A stretch of 63,753 bases of DNA, counting the filler, from Rhabdomonas costata (Eukaryota), in the NCBI GenBank assembly GCA_019059605.1. It is 43 parts of 43 records of this genome, joined end to end, with 100 filler letters (N's around TTAATTAATTAA, not from the genome) between each part and the next. Parts side by side here need not be neighbours in the genome. Positions count along the whole stretch, not along the records: positions 5,946 to 7,330 come from JAHMHO010017504.1; 42 more parts are not named here. One strand, given 5' to 3'. Both the position numbers and the translations under genes were made by a program. Each line of letters begins with the position of its first letter. The first letter of the stretch is position 1. A model generated the notes under the pieces. The model was not told the origin of the DNA. It saw nothing but the letters and a program-made list of their open reading frames with translations, and did not search any database. This document shows, one piece after another, positions 3,909-51,881 of this stretch.

Positions 3909-5955
3909 CTGTGGGTGTGGCGGTGCGAGTGCACAGCCGATTCGAAAGGGAGAAAACAGAAGAGATGCGTGGTTGACTTCCGGCCCTTTCAAAACAGATC
4001 AGCACTCGCAGTGTGTTCTTTACACCTTACCACGCATCTTCCTGTGCTGACGGTCAATTTTGTGACTGAACCACGGTGTGCCTTCCACTCAATCTCTGCC
4101 TTGCAAAACAAATTCGGCATTGAGTACGGGGAAACAATCCGTGACCTCAAACTATGCATATTGAAGAAAATCGGAAAGCAGTCCGTATCCAGCATTTACG
4201 ATTTCATGGTGGCACGGATGAATTGGGTTTACAATGTGCCGCATGCTCGATTTCCAAGTGCCCAACGTTCCCAGAAAACGGAGCCCATGACTCGCTCCCA
4301 TTGCCTCGCTGACCCACTAACAACTTGCTGCACCCGTTCCCTTTACAGAGCAAAGTTTNNNNNNNNNNNNNNNNNNNNNNNNNNNNNNNNNNNNNNNNNN
4401 NNTTAATTAATTAANNNNNNNNNNNNNNNNNNNNNNNNNNNNNNNNNNNNNNNNNNNNTTCGTATGTGGTTGGTGATGGTGGTTGGTGTAGAAGGAATTT
4501 CGTAGAGCTTCGTATTAGATAGCAGAAGATTTCGTTGTGTTGGACGAAGAGTTGAGTTGTCTTTGTTGTTGTGTGTTGTTACCTTTCAGGTGGAGCAGAG
4601 AGTACTTTCGCTAACGAGCTACCTTCTTTGTCGTTGGTGTTGTCGCAGCGGGACTTTGAGCAGTGGACAGTGCTGTTGTGGAGGTGGAGTGCTGTGTTGT
4701 TTCTCATGGTGTGAATGCTTTTCGTAAAGAGAAGGGGAAGTTCGTATCGTATAAAGTTAATCTTTCTTGTGGTAAGAATCGTTCAGCTAGAAGAGCTGAG
4801 CCGTTGGAGTGATCGGACGTCGGAGGCAGATGGCATCCTCCGTCCTAGCAGGGGAGAGTGTAACGGCTCAGCATACGTAGGAAGAACGTTTTGTAGTAGA
4901 AATAAAAGAGACAGCTTGGTGAGCCAGACAAGATTTTCGTAGTAGCTTGGAAGCTTGGTTAGTCTCAGAATTTGGTAAGGAGCTCATAGGAGATCGTTTT
5001 AAAGAGCAGAGATCAATTAAGGCTTTGAAGGTGTTCAAGAAATTCGTAGATCAGTGCGAGAGCAGTGGAGAAGCAAGTGTGGAAAGCAGATTTCTCAAAG
5101 GAGATGTTTAAGAAAGAGAGAGTTTTAGGAGCAGAGGCGGTCAAGCTGAAGCTTTGAGCAGAGTGCTGGCAGCGAAGGTGGCGGAAAACAAGAAGGAGAA
5201 GGCGCAGGAGGACGGTGCTGAGGAGAGCCGTTCCGTAGGACGACGTTGTGGTGGACAAGGCCGCAGAGCTGAGCACAAGACGAGTTGGCCGCGCAGTTCT
5301 GGAGAAGTTGAGCGAGAAGGCCGTGGAAAGCAGCCCCGGGAGGACAGGAATGGGGCGGCAAAGTGCAGCAGGCGGCGTGTTGAGGCAGCAAGGCACCGGC
5401 CAGCAGCGCCAGTTGAGGAGAAGTCCTTGGAAAAGCGCAGTGGGACCCCAGTGCAGGAGGGCAAGCTGACGAGAAGAAGCAGAGCGGGACGAGAAGCTGA
5501 AGAAGAACAACCCCGCTAGAGGAGAGGCAGCCCGAAGTCGAGGTCAGCGCAGAGGAAAGGAAGGCATGGCAAAGAAAGAGAAAAGAGAAGAGCAGCCCGA
5601 GCCAAAAAGGACAGAAAAGCCAGAAGCAGAGAGCGAGAGCATATATCAGGAGAGAGGAAAGTGGGACAAAGGAGGCCGAAGCGGAGAGAAAGAGAGGCAG
5701 CGAGAAGCAGGAATAAAAAGGGAGGGAGCAAAAGAGAAGCAAAAGAGCCAGCAGTAGCAGCAGTCAAAAGGCGGAGTTTGAGCAAAAAGACGAGCGAAAG
5801 AGAAGCCAGGAGGCAAAGGGAAGGGCAGCCCGAGCCAAAAAACACNNNNNNNNNNNNNNNNNNNNNNNNNNNNNNNNNNNNNNNNNNNNTTAATTAATTA
5901 ANNNNNNNNNNNNNNNNNNNNNNNNNNNNNNNNNNNNNNNNNNNNGGGGTTTGGG

Positions 5956-6819
5956 TCATATGTCTATGTTTAGGTCTTTTCTAGTAGATGGCATATTAAA
6001 CATAAATTTTTTACTGACCTTTAGCTTTATACCTGGGAAAGTACAGAAAGCCTGTTTGTGCTTAATCAGTTGCACAACACGAAACAAACTTGATTCGTTG
6101 AACATGTCATGAACTTGTATCTGAAACAAAGAATTCCGAATCTGAAACAAAGGATCTCGACTCGAATTAGATTCTTTCTTAAGTTCTTTCACAAATTCTT
6201 TCTCATTTATGCAGTTCTTCAAAGTTCGAAAGTATCTAATCGTATCGTCTGGAATAATCATCTCTTGCTTTGCATTGTTTTTCGACAGATACAATGCATT
6301 ACACATGAAATCAATATTGTCTGATTTCTCGAAGATGATATCAATCTTTATGTAAATCTTGTTGTAACACAACATAAGTTGTGCTCCACCATTTCCAGCA
6401 TATGGTGTCGTTTTCAAGAGATAAATCTTTGTTTTGTCTTCTTGGAATTCCGTGAAGCTTTTAATCGTTTTTGTGCATGCTTCTTCAATCCATTTGTGAG
6501 AACGACCACGTATCGTCATATCATCATCATCTCTGATTTGATTACGTTTGTCAATCAGTTCCTGTGATGCCACGAGATCAATATCATGAGGACAAGTGTC
6601 ATTAATCAGATCACGGATTGACCCACCGAAACAAGTAAATCCATGATTTAGGAACACCGTCATACATTGTATGTATGTTTGTTTTATGTTTATGTTACTC
6701 GTTGAATCAGTATGAACGAGTTTGTACAAGTTTTTGCATGTCATGCATAACTTGAAAAACGACGTAAAGTCCAGACAACTCGAAATCTCAGTGATGAGAT
6801 CAACAGGCAACTTGTTCAT
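5956..6819 (-). CDS. F-box domain fused to a class II (CCA-adding/poly(A) polymerase head-like) nucleotidyltransferase; intronless and AT-rich
   Basis: N-terminal LPVDLITEISSCLDFTSFFKLCMTCKNLYKL fits the F-box pattern; FGGSIRDLINDTCPHDIDL fits GGxxRD...DxD; KIDII supplies the third Asp; DFMCNALY resembles DFTxNA. Confidence 0.85.
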   Translation of the reverse strand: MNKLPVDLITEISSCLDFTSFFKLCMTCKNLYKLVHTDSTSNINIKQTYIQCMTVFLNHGFTCFGGSIRDLINDTCPHDIDLVASQELIDKRNQIRDDDDMTIRGRSHKWIEEACTKTIKSFTEFQEDKTKIYLLKTTPYAGNGGAQLMLCYNKIYIKIDIIFEKSDNIDFMCNALYLSKNNAKQEMIIPDDTIRYFRTLKNCINEKEFVKELKKESNSSRDPLFQIRNSLFQIQVHDMFNESSLFRVVQLIKHKQAFCTFPGIKLKVSKKFMFNMPSTRKDLNIDI

Positions 6820-6905
6820 TTTTCGTATTTTTTAGATCGATGAATCAAGCTTGATTGAATTTTATTTATTATAAGAATATATTGATTTAGTAAAGTATTA
6901 CTTTT

Positions 6906-6913
6906 TCAATTTT
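6906..6913 (-). promoter_or_regulatory. AAAATTGA Mimiviridae-type early promoter motif upstream of the F-box/NTase gene
   Basis: Plus-strand tcaatttt; correct orientation, about 87 nt upstream of the ATG at 6819, in a 160-nt AT-rich divergent intergenic region. Confidence 0.6.
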
Positions 6914-6979
6914 TTAAATATATAAAAAATTATTTTTCGTCATACATATCTTTATTTATTTCCATAATTATGTATAGAG

Positions 6980-7330
6980 ATGTATTTTAAATTAGGTATT
7001 CGATCAAAAAATAATATTAAAAAAATTCATAGACTTCCTGTTGTAAACAAAAAAGATAATAAAAATAATAAAATAGTTGTGTTACCTCCAGAAGATGATT
7101 ATATTTTATTTCGTACTAAATTTCAAAATTATAAACAACTTTATAATAATAAAATACCAAAGATTATATGGTCATATTGGAATGGATCAGAACCGCCAAA
7201 AATTGTAGATTATTGTATTCAAAATTGGAAAATTTTCGCTCCTAATTATGAAATTAATTTTCTTGATGATACAACTATTTTAAAATATATTTCTCCACCC
7301 CCAAATTTTCATAGTTTAACACCAACAAAG
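6980..7330 (+). CDS. Glycosyltransferase, GT32/capsular polysaccharide synthesis-like (5' part, truncated by contig end)
   Basis: KIPKIIWSYWNG...PKIVDYCIQNWKIFAPNYEINFLDD matches the N-terminal signature of DXD-type GT32/Caps_synth proteins. Confidence 0.85.
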
Positions 7331-30158: not shown

Positions 30159-30602
30159 TCAATGACGTACACGCCTCCACACAGCCCACACGGAGCCCAG
30201 CACCACAACCCCGGAAAGGACCGTGCCAAGAACAAGCTTCCTTATCTGCAAGACCACCATCTCTTGGTATCTGTCGACAATATTGACTACCATGCCACTT
30301 TTCCCGCAGGGCTCGTCGTCGTCGTCCGGAACAAATGGCTGCTCAAAGCGGCACGGAATCGTGGCGGGCATCCCTCGCTGAAGATAGCTCTGTGCCAGGT
30401 GGGAGGTCCGCCCAGAGCATACCTTCTCTGGGAGTGCCCGAAGGTGGTTCAGACCGGTGTTGCACGAGAGCGCCCAGTTGAATTGCTTGGGATGGTTCGC
30501 CCAGTGGCGCTGGTTGAAGTGCTGTACTAGCTCCTGCACAAGGGTGGTGTTCTCCGTGGCGAGATTGTGCCGCTCCTCGGGATCTTCCCAGACATTGAAA
30601 AC
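30159..30602 (-). CDS. Arylsulfatase-family protein, C-terminal part with a terminal TM anchor
   Basis: VFNVWEDPEERHNLATENTTLVQEL fits the sulfatase C-terminal motif (LFNLxxDPxExxNLA); the frame ends in LVLGTVLSGVVVLGSVWAVWRRVRH-TGA. Confidence 0.7.
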   Translation of the reverse strand, partial: VFNVWEDPEERHNLATENTTLVQELVQHFNQRHWANHPKQFNWALSCNTGLNHLRALPEKVCSGRTSHLAQSYLQRGMPATIPCRFEQPFVPDDDDEPCGKSGMVVNIVDRYQEMVVLQIRKLVLGTVLSGVVVLGSVWAVWRRVRH

Positions 30603-32820
30603 CTGAGGGACCGAGAGGGCAGACCGTTGTTGGCCATTCACAAATTTGCAGTGAGCACACTGGGAGCGGTGCCCATCCGACCAACTTGCAGCAGCTGGAA
30701 ACGCAAACATAGCCGGAAATAATCCGTAGTCACTTACAAACCAAAGCAGTTCGGCGCCAGCATGAAGCAGGGGGACTGTGGCAGGAACAGTGTGCAAACA
30801 GAACGTTCCAGCCTGCTCGGGCAGCAGGATGAAGTGTTTCTGGGCTCTGCCCTTAGGCAAGCTAAGCAGCCACGACCGAGCGCATCCAGTTCAGTAAAAA
30901 AAAGAAAGGCACAAAAACCTCAATGCAATCACAGCTGGTGCCTCAAAAGTTGACACTGACTCAACTCGATTCACGAATACAACCTACGGGCCAGGGCTCC
31001 TGCTGTAGCATCCGGACCAGGTGCTGCGATCCGGTTTCGGCTGAGGTCTACGAGCCCCAAATGCGAAATCACCCAGAAAATACCAAAAACCNNNNNNNNN
31101 NNNNNNNNNNNNNNNNNNNNNNNNNNNNNNNNNNNTTAATTAATTAANNNNNNNNNNNNNNNNNNNNNNNNNNNNNNNNNNNNNNNNNNNNGTGGTGTTG
31201 GTTTTGTTCCGTTGTGGGTTGTCCAACTTAGGGCATAGAGGAGGAGCTGGAAACAATGAAAATTGATCATTGGAAGAGCAAAAGTTTGCTTGCGCGGTAT
31301 GTTCTGGGATAAGACTCCCAGTATCTGTCATCCGCTTTTCATCTTGTTGTGGTTTTACCAGCCCTCTTTTCCAGCCTTTCTAAGACGAAGAGCTCACAAT
31401 TGCTGCCCCCAGGCTTTTTGCATCCCACGGAAATTGCCAGGACTGATGAGGTGGGTTTGGGATCACTGCTATTGGGACTACGTTCAAAGCTTTCCCAGTC
31501 ACGTGTTGGTGCACTGAAGATGATGTGCTCTCCGGTCTTCGTGCATGACTTAACTGAACGCGATTACCGTTGTTGAAGCTGAGCTATCGGATGTTTGGCC
31601 GAAAGATTTTCTTCTTCGGAGTTGTTTGGGCTCTTGAAAGAAACTGCACTGGGCGTCTTTTCATCAATTTCGAGACTGCCCGCTCATTCTTTGGGAGAAA
31701 TTGAAGCTGCAGTTGTTTCATTGCCATTGATGTATCTGTGTAACTCTGGGTGTATTGATGTCTTTCTTGTGCGCTGACGGAATTTCAGCCCCTTCGCGGC
31801 TACCAGTCCCGGCGTGGGGTGGGCGGCCTCGAGGAGTCCGTCGGGGGTCTTGTGCAGGCCCTTGGCCCCTCTCAAGATCCCTCCGAAGTCTTGTCTACCT
31901 TTGGGCTGTCCTCCTCTGAGCCCTCCTCAGCGCGGTCCAGCAGTAGAGGGGGCAAGCGCCGCGGCATAGGGCCTGCATCCACATCCTTATGGAATTGAGC
32001 CAGTCAAAACGGAAGCAAAAAAGGTCTCACTCAATCGCACTCTGCTCAGCCGCTGATCCAATCAAACTTGCATGGAAGATTTCTCGTATGGGTGGGGAGG
32101 GCACTGGTGGTGAAGGACCAGGGTCGCAAATTGTTCTTTTTGTGTCAGTTTTGCCCTCCCTGGACTTTCAAATCGGTGCTGGTGTTCTGTGTGTTCGCCG
32201 TCCTGCGTGTATGTATGTTCAAATGATGCGGGGGCGCCATTGTGATCTGCTGGGTGAGTACGGCAGCGCGGAGTTCCTGCATTGTGCCGGGGGCTCCATA
32301 AATGCCGTTGCGCCTTGGTGACTGTACATAGTTTGTCAATTATCTGTCAGTTCCTGACTTCTGATGTTGCTGTCGTGTTTAAAAATGAATCTGTGAGTGG
32401 CTTTGGTTCTGGCATGAATCCTCCAACGATGCTGCGGTGCTGTAGGTTTGTTTTGCTGTTTTCTGTGTTGGCTTGGGTCGGTGGACTTCTGGACGCTTGT
32501 GTTGTCGCTCGGACATTAAAAAGGGCAGGGCGAACGTGCCCGCTTACGTCTTCTCCATGTCAAATATGCTGTACTANNNNNNNNNNNNNNNNNNNNNNNN
32601 NNNNNNNNNNNNNNNNNNNNTTAATTAATTAANNNNNNNNNNNNNNNNNNNNNNNNNNNNNNNNNNNNNNNNNNNNGGTGGTGTGGATACAGAGCCTGCA
32701 CTTCTTCAACGCATCTCCCGCTCACGGCGCCTTCGCCGGCCTGCAGGCTCTGTATCCACCCTTACCCTAGAACGACCTGGTATTCCTGGAGTAGTACTAC
32801 GTCTCTGAAGAGGCCTATAA

Positions 32821-45257: not shown

Positions 45258-46183
45258 TGGTGTGCGGACGATATTTTTCATGCGGTTGTGTGCAGTCATT
45301 GATTCGTGCATTCAGTTTTTCCCTTCCCCTCCCCTTCATACTTCACTCTCCGCCTTCCAAAGGTTACGTCCATCTGTGTTATCACTTTGCCCAGCTGGTA
45401 GAGGTTGCGTTGACAGGAAATCCTCTTTTGCCGTTCTGGGGTGTCTTCCTGCAGCACCGCACCGAGCTATCCTCCTCTGCGGGTCTTCGGACCCACACCA
45501 ATCATCAGGAGTCACGCCGGGAATGGGGATAGGACCACTTTCTTCTGCTGAAGTCTTCACCCATTTTGCTGGGCGATTTCCGACTTGGGCCCACTGGGTA
45601 CCATAACTTGAGCTTGACGGCTGGTTGGGGCCGATACTTTGTGGGATGGTGGTACACTTCTGAGTTGAGTTGTTTTTTTTGGCGGCTTCCTGAAATGTGG
45701 TATCTCTTTGCACAGTGCCTATCCTCCCATCCTCTCCCAATGACTTCGGTTCCACCCCCACACCCCCTGATACTTTGCATTTTCTCCTCTCAGCCTTTGC
45801 ACCCACGTGTAATTTATTGTATCGTTTTTTGCCGGAAAAATAGGCACCCGCTTGTGGGGGCATGCCCTGTTGGAACCCATCCTGTACTGAAAGCACGTAA
45901 AGAAAGAGGGACATTGAGCGTTTCTGACATTTCACCAAACAANNNNNNNNNNNNNNNNNNNNNNNNNNNNNNNNNNNNNNNNNNNNTTAATTAATTAANN
46001 NNNNNNNNNNNNNNNNNNNNNNNNNNNNNNNNNNNNNNNNNNGTGGTGTTAATAAAGTTATGATTATTTAATTATATATCTTAAATAATGTTTGAGATAT
46101 ATAAGTAAAGCGATCTGCTCAGCGGAGTGCTGCTGAGCAGATCGCTCTACTTATATATCTCAAACATTATTTAAGATATATAA

Positions 46184-46504
46184 TTAAATAATCATAACTT
46201 TATTAACACCACATGCAAGTTTATTTAATAGCCAATAAAATGGATACATTATTAAATAGTAAATAAAGAATGTAGATATAAATCCAATTTTCCATGTAAA
46301 ATCAGGTTCAGGTGCATTACATCCAGCAGTTGTAAATACACGACGAAATCTATCATAATAATTTATTTTATTTTTTCTTACATAAAAAAAATAAATAGGT
46401 ACAAATAGACTTATATTAAATGGATGTATGGGAACAAATGGCATCATTGCCGGTGGGAGAAAACAAAATAATTTAGCAAGATATTTAACTGCTTTCGTTG
46501 CCAT
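46184..46504 (-). CDS. Small hydrophobic protein of unknown function (106 aa), intronless and AT-rich
   Basis: Complete ORF with two hydrophobic stretches, divergent from the 46593 ORF across 88 nt. Confidence 0.65.
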   Translation of the reverse strand: MATKAVKYLAKLFCFLPPAMMPFVPIHPFNISLFVPIYFFYVRKNKINYYDRFRRVFTTAGCNAPEPDFTWKIGFISTFFIYYLIMYPFYWLLNKLACGVNKVMII

Positions 46505-46529
46505 TATTATACTACTATAACAAGTAAAA

Positions 46530-46537
46530 AAAATTGA
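46530..46537 (+). promoter_or_regulatory. AAAATTGA Mimiviridae-type early promoter motif
   Basis: Exact octamer, correct orientation, about 55 nt upstream of the ATG at 46593. Confidence 0.65.
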
Positions 46538-46592
46538 AAATTATATTATTTATAATTATATAAATAATTACAAAACAGAATAAACTATTAAA

Positions 46593-47427
46593 ATGTCTCT
46601 TGAATCACATATGCAATATCATAATGCATACAAAAAAGATATTGTCGGATTTATCTGTCGTGATTTCTTCAATAAAGAATGTACATGCGCATATCATCCA
46701 TATACAAAGATATATTTTAATATTGCATCTCTAGATGATATGAATACAATTGAAAAATATTATAAAAATAAACATGAAATTGAAATTTGTGACAAATGTT
46801 TTGACTGTAATGACATGAATTGTATAAAAATTCATTTGTATGATGAATCTATAGCTTGTCGTTCTTTTATTATTATAGATGATATTAATGATGTTGAAAT
46901 TGTAAAGAAATATGCACATTGGATGGATGTAAATGAAACGAAACCAATTATAAATTTCTGTCTTGATAAAACAAAAACTGTACAATGTACTTCAAATGTT
47001 TTTTTTAAAGAAAATACATGTGTATCATATATCGATGAATACAATATGTATAACATTATTAAAAAGAAAATTATAAGTCATATTGAAAAAAATAAATCTG
47101 AACTAAAAACACAAACAGCTATCAACAATACAAAACAAGAAATACAATCAAAAAATGATGATAAATCAAAAGATAGTGATGATAAATCATCAAAAGATAG
47201 TGATGATAAATCATCACAAGATAATATTTTAGATGATGAAACATCTAAAAATACTGAATTATCATTATCACATGATCCATATATGTTGAATATTGAAGAC
47301 AGAGATAATATTGATAGATATATGGATACAATGTGGTTAATTAATGATAGAAATGTCATTGCACGACAAATTTTGAATTATGAATATACTTATCAACCAG
47401 AATTTATAGAACAAAGTTTAATGTCAG
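46593..47427 (+). CDS. Cys/His-rich protein of unknown function with a D/K/S repeat (3' truncated), intronless and AT-rich
   Basis: 278 open codons in very AT-rich DNA; clusters CRDFFNKECTCAYH and CDKCFDCNDMNCIKIH; three copies of GATGATAAATCA(TCA)AAAGATAGT near 47156-47224. Confidence 0.8.
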
Positions 47428-50058: not shown

Positions 50059-50497
50059 CTATATTTTTTTTTCGTTTTATGACGGGGAGAAGAGCACGGA
50101 GGCCGGACCACAGCTGTCCTAGGGATGTCTTTGGCGTGGTTGACAACGCGCACTGAAACAAACATGAGCTTCCCAGGAAAAAATCGACACCGCGAATCTA
50201 CGAGTTTAGCGAGCTCGAGCTCAAAGGAAGGTACAGCGTCTAAGTCAGCTTCAGCCAACCGTAACCAGAACAAAGGTACAAAGGTCACGCTCAACCACAT
50301 TTTTTAAACTAGAGGCGGGGGGACCTGGACAAACGGACAGTGCCTGTCTCTCGCTCCTCAACCCCCTCCCTCCGCGTCCACCCTTTTCTGCCCTCTNNNN
50401 NNNNNNNNNNNNNNNNNNNNNNNNNNNNNNNNNNNNNNNNTTAATTAATTAANNNNNNNNNNNNNNNNNNNNNNNNNNNNNNNNNNNNNNNNNNNNT

Positions 50498-51881
50498 GGA
50501 TTATATGCACATAGTCCAATCATGAAAACTGATAATTTCAATGTTACGTCAATTATAACATTATTACAATGTTTCTATCCAATTATAAGTCTATATTCCG
50601 ACATAGCTTTTATAAATATTAGTGTTGATAATATATGGTCGGTATATTATAATGCAAATTATGATATTTATTTACATCAAAATAAGAAAACTATATATAT
50701 ATATACAGTACATATAATACGGAAAATTATAACATATCTAATTATTATTTAGTACATCCTGAAACAGGAGAAATATTTGATAAAGTATATACATATGAAT
50801 GTATATTTGATAAATGTAATATAACTACATATTTATATAATATAAATTTATTACATAAAATAAAACCGGATAATATTACTAAAAATACAGTTGAAATTTT
50901 TAATAGAAACACAAATAATATATCAGTAAGAATAAATTATAATTTATATAACACATATACTACATTATCAATGATATATAATAATAATATAATACTATGT
51001 AATGGTGTTAATTATACAGAATCATCATCATTCAATATCATTGCTGATAATTTTAATTTTAGTACAAATTTGATAAATACATGGCTAAAAGATAATTACA
51101 ATACAAAAAAATATTTTAGAAATGAAGTTACATTTGATAATTTGTATTTATCAATAAGTACATATGATGCAAAAACAAAAATATATTTTAATATATTATA
51201 CAGTTATTATGATGTTCAAAATGATATGTATAATTTTAAATTAACGACAAATAATATTATTGATACAAGTAATAAAAAATCATTAATTATATTAATTGTA
51301 ACAATTGTAATTACATGTGTATTATCAATATTAATAATTTATACATTGTCTACTTCATTATACAAATTAGCAAATAATATAAACATGATAGCTTTATTAC
51401 AATACGATGATCATAATTATAAACAATATCATTCGTTTTTTTCTGAATTTTCAGCTTGTGAAACATCTTTAAAAAGATTAGAACGTGGAACACGAGCATT
51501 TAGTATGTATATACCTTTACAAATAGTTAGATTTATGTTAGCAGGTACAATAGATACGTCATATGTAATGATAAATACAAGAACAACAATAATGTTTTCT
51601 GATATTATTGGATATACAACATTATGTGAGAAAATAGAATTACATGATTTAATGATTATGACAAATAAATATTTTGATATTATGTGTAAAATAATAAATG
51701 ATTCAAAAGGAATTATAGACAAATTTATAGGTGATTGTATTATGGTAATGTGGAATCCAGTATTTGTTTCAAATCAAGAAGTTGCTTCTTGTAATGTTGC
51801 ATTACAAATGCAATATGATATGCTTAATTTAAACAATGAATTTACAAAAATAGATTTACCGAATTTTAAATTTAAAATTGG
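50498..51881 (+). CDS. Receptor-type class III adenylyl cyclase (extracellular region, TM, HAMP-like linker, catalytic domain); intronless, extremely AT-rich, one frameshift at a (TA)n run near 50692-50705
   Basis: TM LIILIVTIVITCVLSILIIYTL; AFSMYIP; TIMFSDIIGYTTLCE; IDKFIGDCIMVMWNP has the second metal Asp and the ATP-selecting Lys. The contig is open end to end if one TA unit is removed. Confidence 0.9.

What the first reader, a model, noticed from the sequence alone, without database searches (positions are those of the whole stretch)
5956..6819. F-box fused to a minimal class II nucleotidyltransferase lacking the CCA-templating motif
Seen: an F-box (about aa 1-36) precedes an NTase head with intact catalytic motifs (GGSIRD, DID, KID, DFMCNAL). 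The EDxxRR residues that precede DFTxNA in CCA-adding enzymes are replaced by EKSDNI, and the 287-aa length leaves no room for the usual body/tail. Known: F-boxes bind Skp1 of SCF ubiquitin ligases and normally carry repeat-type substrate domains. Inference: this could be a viral effector linking ubiquitination to RNA tailing or repair, protein NMPylation, or acting as a decoy. I do not recognise the architecture as characterised. The stop codon abuts the amplification tail, so the C-terminus may be incomplete.
Basis: partly seen in the sequence, partly recalled or inferred. Interest (0 to 1): 0.75.

Follow-up and report, generated by a model that had tools for sequence, protein, structure and literature searches.

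The report
Giant-virus F-box fused to minimal nucleotidyltransferase
A short AT-rich, probably giant-virus DNA fragment encodes a rare protein that joins an F-box (a handle for the host's ubiquitin machinery) to a stripped-down nucleotidyltransferase of the kind found in small phage enzymes; what it does is untested.

Summary
ORF 5956-6819 (minus strand, 287 aa) lies on a 1,385-bp, 30% GC contig, one of 43 unrelated amplified contigs chained in the window. Its N-terminus passes Pfam's F-box cutoff (29 bits against 20.5). The rest is a minimal class II-like nucleotidyltransferase (NTase) head. Pfam PolyA_pol scores below its cutoff, but profile comparisons support motif A (GGSIRD...DID) and, separately, a motif B remnant (DFMCNALY). 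It is not a truncated CCA-adding enzyme. The only relatives found among 1.84 billion representatives are complete at 348-359 aa and also lack the RRD arginines, the EDxxR motif and the body and tail domains. The closest annotated relatives of the NTase part are small phage NTases (phrog_1614, 167-212 aa). A preprint says proteins of this kind are annotated as Gad2 family in some phages. The contig is most likely from a giant virus. The fusion appears new, but it is shown only for this protein, because the relatives' N-termini do not score as F-box. Both structure predictions failed. Skp1 binding, enzyme activity and the reality of the stop codon at the primer tail are untested. Moderately interesting: a new variant of known kinds.

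The parts
5946..5955 (.). G/T-only contig head (GGGGTTTGGG), a degenerate-primer amplification tail and not genomic sequence
   Evidence: Most of the 43 contigs start with a G/T-only run and end with a C/A-only run.
5956..5958 (-). TGA stop codon directly against the primer tail. It may be partly primer-derived.
   Evidence: Reads could not be checked.
5959..6819 (-). Coding sequence of the 287-aa F-box/NTase protein (P0001)
   Evidence: Homologs P0003, P0005 and P0009.
6709..6813 (-). F-box, aa 3-37 (LPVDLITEISSCLDFTSFFKLCMTCKNLYKLV)
   Evidence: Pfam PF00646, E 9.2e-7, 29 bits against cutoff 20.5. Weak PDB matches to the Skp2 F-box, E 0.71 and 1.2.
6280..6687 (-). Minimal class II-like nucleotidyltransferase head, about aa 45-180
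   Evidence: hhalign against 3 phrog_1614 phage NTases: probability 95.4%, E 2e-8. Against a PcnB/Cca head profile: 67%, E 5e-5. NCBIfam pcnB: aa 59-179 onto profile 28-133, E 0.014.
6577..6627 (-). Motif A: GGSIRD(x8)DID, aa 65-81, with two catalytic aspartates D79 and D81
   Evidence: Invariant in 3 of 3 aligned full-length family members. Aligned to GGxVRD...DxD of PcnB and Cca.
6334..6351 (-). Strand IKIDII (aa 157-162). D160 is the inferred third catalytic carboxylate.
   Evidence: D160 is invariant in the family. Its equivalence to the hEh strand of class II enzymes is my inference, because hhalign did not align it there.
6289..6312 (-). Motif B remnant DFMCNALY (aa 170-177). The two arginines of RRD are replaced by N and I.
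   Evidence: A downstream-only hhalign places it on RRDFTINALYY with score 27.3. None of 100 column shuffles reached that score (maximum 19.2).
5959..6279 (-). C-terminal region, aa 181-287, no recognised family, poorly conserved against the relatives
   Evidence: No Pfam hit. BLASTP found nothing significant here against P0003. A weak RDPLFQIR/EDPVRMLR alignment to PcnB appeared in 1 of 6 comparisons.
6820..6979 (.). 160-bp, 17% GC divergent intergenic region, with AAAATTGA at 6906-6913 on the gene's strand, 87-94 nt upstream of the ATG
   Evidence: 777 of 20000 shuffles contain the octamer. It is the mimivirus early promoter motif according to PMC5294985.
6980..7330 (+). Divergent neighbour: the first 117 aa of a Caps_synth-type glycosyltransferase, cut by the contig end
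   Evidence: Pfam PF05704, 32.4 bits against cutoff 24.5. Relatives on 3 IMG/VR viral contigs.

Best explanation
This is a real gene on a fragment of a large AT-rich eukaryotic DNA virus (Nucleocytoviricota, possibly mimivirus-like). The fragment was captured in a primer-amplified assembly of a eukaryotic sample. The protein has three parts. The first is an N-terminal F-box (aa 3-37). The second is a stripped-down class II-type nucleotidyltransferase head (about aa 45-180) of the minimal viral kind represented by phrog_1614 and Gad2-annotated phage enzymes. The third is a roughly 105-aa C-terminal region of unknown type. The domain calls are shown. So is the conservation, in all aligned family members, of the G-G motif, the two motif A aspartates, a third aspartate and DFxCNxLY. 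So is the absence of the RRD arginines, the EDxxR motif and the body and tail domains. The rest is inferred. The head is probably an active NMP-transferring enzyme that is neither CCA-adding nor tRNA-specific. The F-box probably docks it on host Skp1, so that the virus places a nucleotidyl-transfer activity at the SCF ubiquitin ligase, or ties the enzyme's lifetime to it, early in infection as a host-manipulating effector. I give about 0.75 to the identity part and about 0.35 to the SCF-docked active enzyme mechanism.
For: F-box: Pfam 29 bits against cutoff 20.5, and the extra 44 residues lie ahead of the helix that aligns with the first helix of PcnB. NTase: PolyA_pol is the best non-F-box Pfam match in all 3 family members scanned (P0001, P0003, P0004). 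All 5 PDB matches of the family profile are CCA-adding enzymes (E 0.047-0.16). hhalign gives 67%, E 5e-5 against a PcnB/Cca head profile. With motif A removed, a second collinear match places DFxCNxLY on RRDFTINALYY, and 0 of 100 shuffles reach its score. hhalign gives 95.4%, E 2e-8 against phrog_1614 phage NTases. P0003 and P0005 hit phrog_1614 at 1e-7 and 1e-6. Catalytic residues are invariant across two clades that are only about 30% identical. Not a truncated CCA enzyme: relatives are complete at 348, 354 and about 359 aa, with 126-131 aa after DFxCNxLY against 117 here. Viral origin: both Atlas queries land on the same three 100%-virus (Nucleocytoviricota) clusters at 0.92-0.95. The neighbour's relatives are on IMG/VR viral contigs, and one of these also carries sugar enzymes and a cysteine-rich protein that I read by eye as an RBR/IBR zinc finger. 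AAAATTGA lies 87-94 nt upstream on the gene's strand (PMC5294985). No relative was found in 185,579 prokaryote species genomes. Multi-copy F-box proteins are reported in a giant virus genome (PMC12085832).
Against: PolyA_pol is below Pfam's cutoff (16.9 against 23), and P0001 itself has no phrog_1614 hit at E<=1. All profile matches cover only about 32-40 columns. The motif B match has a modest hhalign probability (13.7%). In pairwise tests only 1 of 6 downstream comparisons beat its shuffles. Both AlphaFold models failed (pLDDT 43 and 35), so neither domain has structural support. The relatives' N-termini give no Pfam F-box at E<=10, and P0001's first 44 aa do not score against them (0.9 bits, reached by 64 of 300 shuffles). 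The fusion is therefore shown in one protein only. Viral origin is indirect: no capsid or polymerase gene is on the contig, no relative was found in IMG/VR, and AAAATTGA arises by chance in about 4% of shuffles. The stop codon may be partly primer-derived. Nothing bears on substrate, activity or Skp1 binding.
Confidence: 0.5

Rival explanations
1. It is a plain stand-alone minimal NTase. The N-terminal 44 residues are only a helical cap that happens to resemble an F-box and do not bind Skp1. The protein works like the small phage NTases (phrog_1614, Gad2-annotated) on a nucleic acid or nucleotide substrate, with no link to ubiquitination.
For: The relatives have an N-terminal extension of the same length that Pfam does not call an F-box at E<=10. 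P0001's N-terminus is not significantly similar to theirs. The NTase module is the only part with demonstrable homology across the family.
Against: P0001's N-terminus passes Pfam's curated F-box cutoff by 8.5 bits, with the LP dipeptide and the CK-x-hydrophobic end in place. The phage NTases have no such extension. F-box proteins are common in giant viruses (PMC12085832).
Confidence: 0.2
2. It is a conventional SCF substrate receptor. The NTase-like domain is used for binding rather than catalysis, and it presents a host nucleotide- or RNA-associated protein to SCF for degradation.
For: F-box proteins normally work this way (established knowledge of SCF). The ribose-sensing RR and the templating motif are lost, which would fit a decaying enzyme.
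Against: G65, G66, R69, D70, D79, D81, D160 and DFxCNxLY are invariant between clades that share only about 30% identity. That is the pattern of an enzyme under selection. The minimal phage NTases lack the RR too.
Confidence: 0.15
3. It is not viral. The contig comes from an AT-rich cellular organism in the same sample, such as an intracellular bacterium with F-box effectors or an AT-rich protist.
For: The contig carries no viral hallmark gene. Caps_synth is also a bacterial family. One relative sits on a 490-kb contig whose nature I could not inspect. F-box expansions exist in amoeba-associated bacteria (title and abstract of PMC4209131 in the listing).
Against: No relative was found in one genome for each of 185,579 prokaryote species. 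The nearest Atlas clusters are 100% viral. The neighbour's relatives are on IMG/VR viral contigs. The mimivirus-type promoter octamer lies upstream here and on a second AT-rich contig of the window.
Confidence: 0.1
4. It is a fragment of a canonical CCA-adding enzyme or poly(A) polymerase whose body and tail were cut off by the contig end or by a primer-made stop.
For: The TGA abuts the primer tail, and reads could not be consulted.
Against: Three full-length relatives end 126-131 aa after DFxCNxLY (117 aa here) and total 348-359 aa. Motif B arginines and motif D are absent. The loop between the third carboxylate strand and motif B is about 8 aa, against about 35 in PcnB.
Confidence: 0.03

Closest known systems
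Small phage nucleotidyltransferases of phrog_1614 (Autographiviridae genes next to DNA polymerase or primase, annotated nucleotidyltransferase, tRNA nucleotidyltransferase or polyA polymerase; a preprint says proteins of this kind are annotated as Gad2 family in some phages)
   Same: Both are minimal class II-like heads. They share motif A (xGGxxRD...P.D[FI]D), an hDhhF strand and a short spacer to an FD/DF-x-N motif without the RR pair. They share the same below-cutoff PolyA_pol similarity. hhalign probability is 95.4%, E 2e-8.
   Different: The phage proteins are 167-212 aa, have no F-box and have no roughly 105-aa C-terminal region. They come from phages of bacteria (210 records). The similarity is demonstrable only over about 32 columns, and P0001 alone does not hit the phrog.
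Gad2, the Gabija anti-defence protein of Bacillus phage SPbetaL7 (Pfam PF26128)
   Same: It is a viral protein whose only recognised feature is a predicted NTase domain (10.1101/2023.05.01.538930, passages). The three nearest Atlas clusters for P0001 and for P0003 are giant-virus proteins of 265-305 aa, and 12-29% of their members carry PF26128.
   Different: Gad2 is 400 aa, acts in bacteria against Gabija, and its mechanism is still unknown. Membership could not be tested, because PF26128 is not in the local Pfam copy and I had no Gad2 sequence. The Atlas link is a lead without an alignment.
Class II CCA-adding enzymes and poly(A) polymerase I (Pfam PolyA_pol head, PF01743)
   Same: Motif A and the end of motif B (DFTINxLY against DFMCNALY) occur in the same order. 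All PDB matches of the family profile are CCA-adding enzymes.
   Different: The Pfam score is below cutoff. The RR of motif B, motif D (EDxxR), the roughly 35-aa loop, and the neck, body and tail domains are all absent. The length is 287-359 aa against 412-465 aa.
Viral F-box proteins (giant-virus F-box families; poxvirus ankyrin/F-box proteins)
   Same: It has a virus-encoded F-box that would recruit host Skp1/SCF. CpV-BQ1 encodes six F-box domain proteins of similar size (PMC12085832). Poxvirus ANK/F-box proteins associate with SCF1 (seen only as a reference title in PMC5871332).
   Different: The known proteins carry repeat or unknown substrate-binding domains. None I found carries an NTase. 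In poxvirus proteins the F-box is C-terminal (recalled).

Membership tests
F-box (Pfam PF00646) | Profile match above the curated gathering score | tested here: met
   29 bits against 20.5, E 9.2e-7, aa 3-37 onto profile 3-37 of 43. F-box-like PF12937 is below its cutoff (21.2 against 24.3).
F-box (Pfam PF00646) | Three-helix F-box fold | tested here: inconclusive
   AlphaFold pLDDT is 31-41 over aa 1-40 in both models. Helices are predicted at 6-12 and 18-37, but the models are unreliable.
F-box (Pfam PF00646) | Binding to Skp1 | not testable with these tools
F-box (Pfam PF00646) | F-box present in the protein's relatives (conserved architecture) | tested here: not met
   No F-box hit at E<=10 in P0003 or P0004. 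P0001 aa 1-44 scores 0.9 bits against the relatives' N-terminal HMM, and 64 of 300 shuffles reach that score.
Class II nucleotidyltransferase, PolyA_pol head (PF01743) | Profile match above the gathering score | tested here: not met
   16.9 bits (P0001), 18.9 (P0003) and 16.5 (P0004) against the cutoff of 23.
Class II nucleotidyltransferase, PolyA_pol head (PF01743) | Motif A, GGxVRD...DxD, with two catalytic aspartates | tested here: met
   GGSIRD(x8)DID is invariant in the family and aligns to PcnB and Cca.
Class II nucleotidyltransferase, PolyA_pol head (PF01743) | Third catalytic carboxylate on the following beta-strand | tested here: inconclusive
   D160 is invariant in a predicted strand (low confidence). 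Its equivalence to the IIEVATFR strand of PcnB is my reading and was not produced by hhalign.
Class II nucleotidyltransferase, PolyA_pol head (PF01743) | Motif B, RRD-F-T-x-N | tested here: not met
   DFMCNALY aligns to RRDFTINALYY, but the two arginines are N and I here, and T-T or T-S in the relatives.
CCA-adding enzyme | Motif D (EDxxR) nucleotide template | tested here: not met
   Only a weak RDPLFQIR/EDPVRMLR alignment exists in P0001 (9 of 2000 shuffles reach it). E and R are not kept, and the relatives have no counterpart.
CCA-adding enzyme | Neck, body and tail domains for tRNA binding (about 400 aa or more in total) | tested here: not met
   287 aa here. Relatives are complete at 348-359 aa, against 412 and 465 aa for E. 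coli Cca and PcnB.
phrog_1614 minimal phage nucleotidyltransferase | Match to the family profile | tested here: inconclusive
   P0001 has no hit at E<=1. P0003 hits at 1.2e-7 and P0005 at 9.7e-7, but only over aa 54-105. The family profile against 3 members gives 95.4% by hhalign over 32 columns.
Gad2 (PF26128) | Match to the Pfam model or to Gad2 itself | not testable with these tools
   PF26128 is absent from the local Pfam copy, and no Gad2 sequence was fetched. The only link is Atlas feature similarity at 0.92-0.95 to clusters in which 12-29% of members carry PF26128.

The most novel reading that the evidence does not exclude
A giant virus has joined a phage-type anti-defence nucleotidyltransferase (Gad2/phrog_1614 kind) to an F-box. 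The enzyme would then work at the host SCF ubiquitin ligase, for example by nucleotidylating an SCF component or an SCF-bound substrate. That would be a previously unseen way of coupling nucleotidyl transfer to the eukaryotic ubiquitin system, and a bridge between phage counter-defence enzymes and eukaryotic virus-host conflict.
Probability: 0.12. Interest if true: 0.8.

Novelty: new variant of a known kind. Interest (0 to 1): 0.45.

Why it matters
Minimal class II-like NTases are widespread in T7-like phages (210 records), and one family member type, Gad2, defeats a bacterial defence by an unknown mechanism. Finding the same stripped-down catalytic head in a probable giant virus of eukaryotes, attached to an SCF-recruiting F-box, would give a handle on what these enzymes act on. 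It would also add an enzyme class to the range of domains that viral F-box proteins carry. The family is extremely rare: five loci counting this one and a split copy, with 2 hits among 1.84 billion representatives. The practical value therefore depends on recovering the parent genome and on bench tests.

Tried and rejected
Structure. AlphaFold from the single sequence (pLDDT 43) and from the 5-row family alignment (pLDDT 35) both failed. I ran no fold search, because matches to such models are meaningless.

Relatives.
- The word-indexed protein search with P0001 found nothing (498 candidates).
- Profile searches added only the P0003 clade.
- No relative turned up in IMG/VR, in JGI metagenome contigs, in GTDB species genomes, or in GenBank phages at E<=0.01.
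- A degenerate DNA pattern for FGG[YS][VI]RD[ML]IN found 5 IMG/VR stretches, all chance matches: two long unrelated ORFs and three short ORFs.

- PF26128 is not in the local Pfam copy.
- Complex prediction was not used, because no Skp1 sequence was available.

Weak or negative tests.
- Pairwise tests of the region after motif A were significant in only 1 of 6 comparisons (P0001 against PcnB).
- hhalign of the family against single PcnB and Cca sequences was weak (21% and 3.8%).

Rejected reading. A truncated CCA-adding enzyme does not fit the full-length relatives.

Literature. My searches found no paper describing an F-box/NTase fusion or Gad2-like proteins in giant viruses. A search for Gad2 with GajA from 2024 on listed 12 of 15 papers by title and abstract, and none reported a Gad2 mechanism.
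Full report
WHAT THE WINDOW IS. The 63,753-base window is not one locus. It is 43 separate contigs of 1380-1389 bp joined by N/TTAATTAATTAA/N spacers. Most contigs start with a G/T-only run and end with a C/A-only run. That is the signature of degenerate-primer whole-genome or transcriptome amplification, and my attribution to such a kit chemistry is from memory. Forty contigs have 49-58% GC. Three are AT-rich: 5946-7330 (30%), 46043-47427 (24%) and 50497-51881 (20%). Rfam finds nothing in the window. Of the ten longest open frames on the roughly 50% GC contigs, only 1 has any Pfam hit at E<=0.001, and that hit is below cutoff. This fits non-coding-rich eukaryotic DNA. The finding lies wholly on the 30% GC contig, so only 1,385 bases of true context exist.

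THE OBSERVATION. The ORF runs from 6819 (ATG) to 5956 (the end of the TGA) on the minus strand and encodes 287 aa. An in-frame stop lies 4 codons above the ATG. Pfam calls an F-box at aa 3-37 above its curated cutoff (29 bits against 20.5, E 9.2e-7). PolyA_pol matches aa 65-135 but below its cutoff (16.9 bits against 23). NCBIfam's pcnB model matches aa 59-179 weakly (E 0.014). The TGA sits directly against the 10-nt G/T tail at 5946-5955. Reads could not be consulted.

RELATIVES. A full HMMER scan of 1.84 billion representative proteins gave only 2 hits at E<=0.001: P0003 (348 aa) and P0004 (129 aa).
- Profile searches of the 5.8-billion-protein collection added P0005 (354 aa) and P0006 (245 aa), and nothing more even at E<=10.
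- P0004 and P0006 lie on the same 37.5-kb contig and together look like a split copy.
- P0009 (394 aa as called, about 359 aa from its MNIL start) is an intact version.
- P0003 lies on a 490-kb contig.
- These proteins form one tight clade. P0001 is the sole member of a second lineage. It is 35% identical to P0003 over aa 1-88 (E 5e-13), with a second weak segment over aa 152-184 (E 0.011).
- No relative appeared in IMG/VR, JGI metagenome contigs, GTDB genomes or GenBank phages at E<=0.01.
- P0001 itself is not in the 15-billion-protein collection.

IS THE SECOND DOMAIN A CLASS II-LIKE NTASE? Several lines agree, each modest on its own.
- PolyA_pol is the best non-F-box Pfam match in all 3 family members scanned.
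- All 5 PDB matches of the family profile are CCA-adding enzymes (E 0.047-0.16).
- I built a head-plus-neck profile from 76 of 80 PcnB-type loci fetched from GTDB genomes, plus E. coli Cca. The family aligns to it at motif A with hhalign probability 67%, E 5e-5.
- I then removed motif A from both sides. The downstream halves still find each other, and DFxCNxLY falls exactly on RRDFTINALYY. The score is 27.3, against a mean of 12.9, SD 2.0 and maximum 19.2 in 100 column shuffles. This is independent, collinear support.

Some results point the other way.
- hhalign's own probability for that downstream match is only 13.7%.
- Pairwise tests of the same region were significant in 1 of 6 comparisons.
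- Both AlphaFold runs failed (pLDDT 43 and 35), so there is no structural confirmation.

Across the two lineages the invariant residues include G65, G66, R69, D70, D79, D81, D160 and D170-F-x-C-N-x-L-Y. That is the catalytic set one expects of an active Pol-beta-type enzyme. Reading D160 as the third carboxylate is my inference.

WHAT IT IS NOT. Several features of E. coli Cca and PcnB are absent.
- The two arginines of motif B are N and I here, and T-T or T-S in the relatives.
- The EDxxR motif D is missing.
- The roughly 35-residue loop before motif B is about 8 residues here.
- There is no room for neck, body and tail domains.
The complete relatives end 126-131 residues after DFxCNxLY, against 117 here. 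At most about 15-20 C-terminal residues could therefore be missing, and a 'longer canonical CCA enzyme' is very unlikely. They are motif B, and the templating motif D lies downstream (names recalled).

CLOSEST ANNOTATED RELATIVES. P0003 and P0005 hit phrog_1614 'nucleotidyltransferase' at 1e-7 and 1e-6. P0001 alone does not hit it at E<=1.
- A permissive tblastn of P0003 against phages gave 18 weak hits (E 0.4-8). All fall on aa 52-87. Of the genes under them, 12 are annotated nucleotidyltransferase or polyA polymerase, 4 are hypothetical and 2 are unannotated.
- Three of these genes encode 167-212 aa proteins that lie next to DNA polymerase or primase in Autographiviridae.
- All 3 match phrog_1614 strongly (E 2e-23 to 8e-39).
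- All 3 show the same below-cutoff PolyA_pol similarity.
- All 3 have the same reduced layout: motif A, an hDhhF strand, and FD-x-N without the RR pair.
- Profile against profile, the family matches them at 95.4%, E 2e-8, over 32 columns. This is better than its match to PcnB.
- Proteins of this type occur in 210 phage records.
[quoted passage not shown] I infer that gp22 is of the phrog_1614 type and did not test that. Independently, the protein-language-model Atlas puts both P0001 and P0003 nearest to the same three clusters. These are 100% viral (Nucleocytoviricota) proteins of 265-305 aa, and 12-29% of their members carry Pfam PF26128 (Gad2) (scores 0.92-0.95). I could not test Gad2 membership, because PF26128 is missing from the local Pfam copy. 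Gad2 itself is a 400-aa phage protein with a predicted NTase domain and an unknown mechanism (passages).

THE F-BOX. In P0001 it is solid by Pfam's standard. It also sits ahead of the helix that aligns with the first helix of PcnB, so the domain boundaries make sense. The relatives have an N-terminal extension of the same length with an F-box-like hydrophobic pattern by eye. However, Pfam reports no F-box in them at E<=10. P0001's first 44 residues score only 0.9 bits against their N-terminal profile, and 64 of 300 shuffles reach that score. The fusion is therefore demonstrated in one protein, and may or may not be ancestral to the family.

ORIGIN. Several observations point to a large eukaryotic DNA virus.
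- The contig has 30% GC, two intron-less divergent genes and a 160-bp, 17% GC spacer.
- The octamer AAAATTGA lies 87-94 nt upstream on the gene's strand (777 of 20000 shuffles contain it).
- The same octamer lies 56-63 nt upstream of the long ORF on the 24% GC contig (367 of 20000 shuffles).
- This octamer is the early promoter motif found upstream of about 45% of mimivirus genes (PMC5294985, passages).
- The neighbour is the start of a Caps_synth glycosyltransferase. Its relatives lie on three IMG/VR viral contigs.
- The best of those contigs also encodes a second glycosyltransferase-like protein, a sugar epimerase/dehydratase-like protein, and a cysteine-rich protein that I read by eye as an RBR/IBR zinc finger.
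Giant viruses are known to carry several F-box genes (PMC12085832, passages). None of this is proof, and I keep a cellular origin at about 0.1.

MECHANISM. The shown steps are the domain calls, the retention of catalytic residues under divergence, and the loss of all CCA and tRNA-specific features. The inferred steps are these. The head transfers a nucleotide to an unknown acceptor. The F-box docks on host Skp1. The protein acts early in infection as a host-directed effector. I put about 0.35 on the SCF-docked active enzyme. The rivals are a plain minimal NTase whose N-terminus does not bind Skp1 (0.2), an SCF receptor that uses a catalytically idle NTase fold for binding (0.15), a non-viral origin (0.1) and a truncated canonical enzyme (0.03).

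VERDICT. This is a real, very rare gene, and its architecture (an F-box plus a minimal viral class II-like NTase) was not described in the papers I could search. It is best filed as a new variant built from two known kinds. Interest is moderate. The combination is suggestive, but the evidence is a 1.4-kb fragment with no structure, no context and no functional data.

Noticed in passing
window 1-63753: The window is a chain of 43 unrelated contigs of 1380-1389 bp joined by N/TTAATTAATTAA/N spacers. Most contigs carry G/T-only heads and C/A-only tails from degenerate-primer amplification. Features that seem to span a spacer or abut a contig end should be distrusted.
   Followed up: yes
window 46043-47427: A second AT-rich contig (24% GC). 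A long ORF starts at 46593 and is still open at the contig end (278 aa). It has cysteine/histidine-rich and acidic serine-rich stretches and no Pfam family. AAAATTGA lies 56-63 nt upstream. A 106-aa ORF lies on the other strand (46184-46504). It may come from the same virus.
   Followed up: partly
window 50497-51881: A third AT-rich contig (20% GC). An ORF from 50971 is open at the contig end and has a hydrophobic segment followed by a class III adenylate/guanylate cyclase catalytic domain (PF00211, E 1e-6, 28.9 bits against cutoff 21.9). Its origin, viral or AT-rich cellular, is unknown.
   Followed up: partly
window 6980-7330; L001 2938-3726: The divergent neighbour is the N-terminal 117 aa of a Caps_synth-type glycosyltransferase. 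It is 52% identical over aa 58-105 to a 262-aa ORF on a 35-kb IMG/VR contig. That contig also carries a second glycosyltransferase-like ORF, an epimerase/dehydratase-like ORF and a cysteine-rich ORF that I read by eye as an RBR/IBR zinc finger.
   Followed up: partly
proteins P0004, P0006, P0009 (no window coordinates): In one relative the gene is split into 129-aa and 245-aa pieces on the same 37.5-kb contig, while a near-identical intact version exists elsewhere (P0009). This suggests a frameshifted or decaying copy in one genome.
   Followed up: no
L091 1399-2037; L092 1465-1992; L093 1441-1944: Small NTases (167-212 aa) sit directly next to DNA polymerase or primase/helicase genes in T7-like phages, and the type occurs in 210 phage records. 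They score below Pfam's PolyA_pol cutoff, and their function appears to be unstudied apart from the toxicity reported in one preprint.
   Followed up: partly
window 30162-30890: An open frame on a roughly 54% GC contig has a below-cutoff match to the C-terminal region of aryl-sulfatases (24.3 bits against 30.9). It is the only Pfam signal among the ten longest frames of the GC-normal contigs.
   Followed up: no
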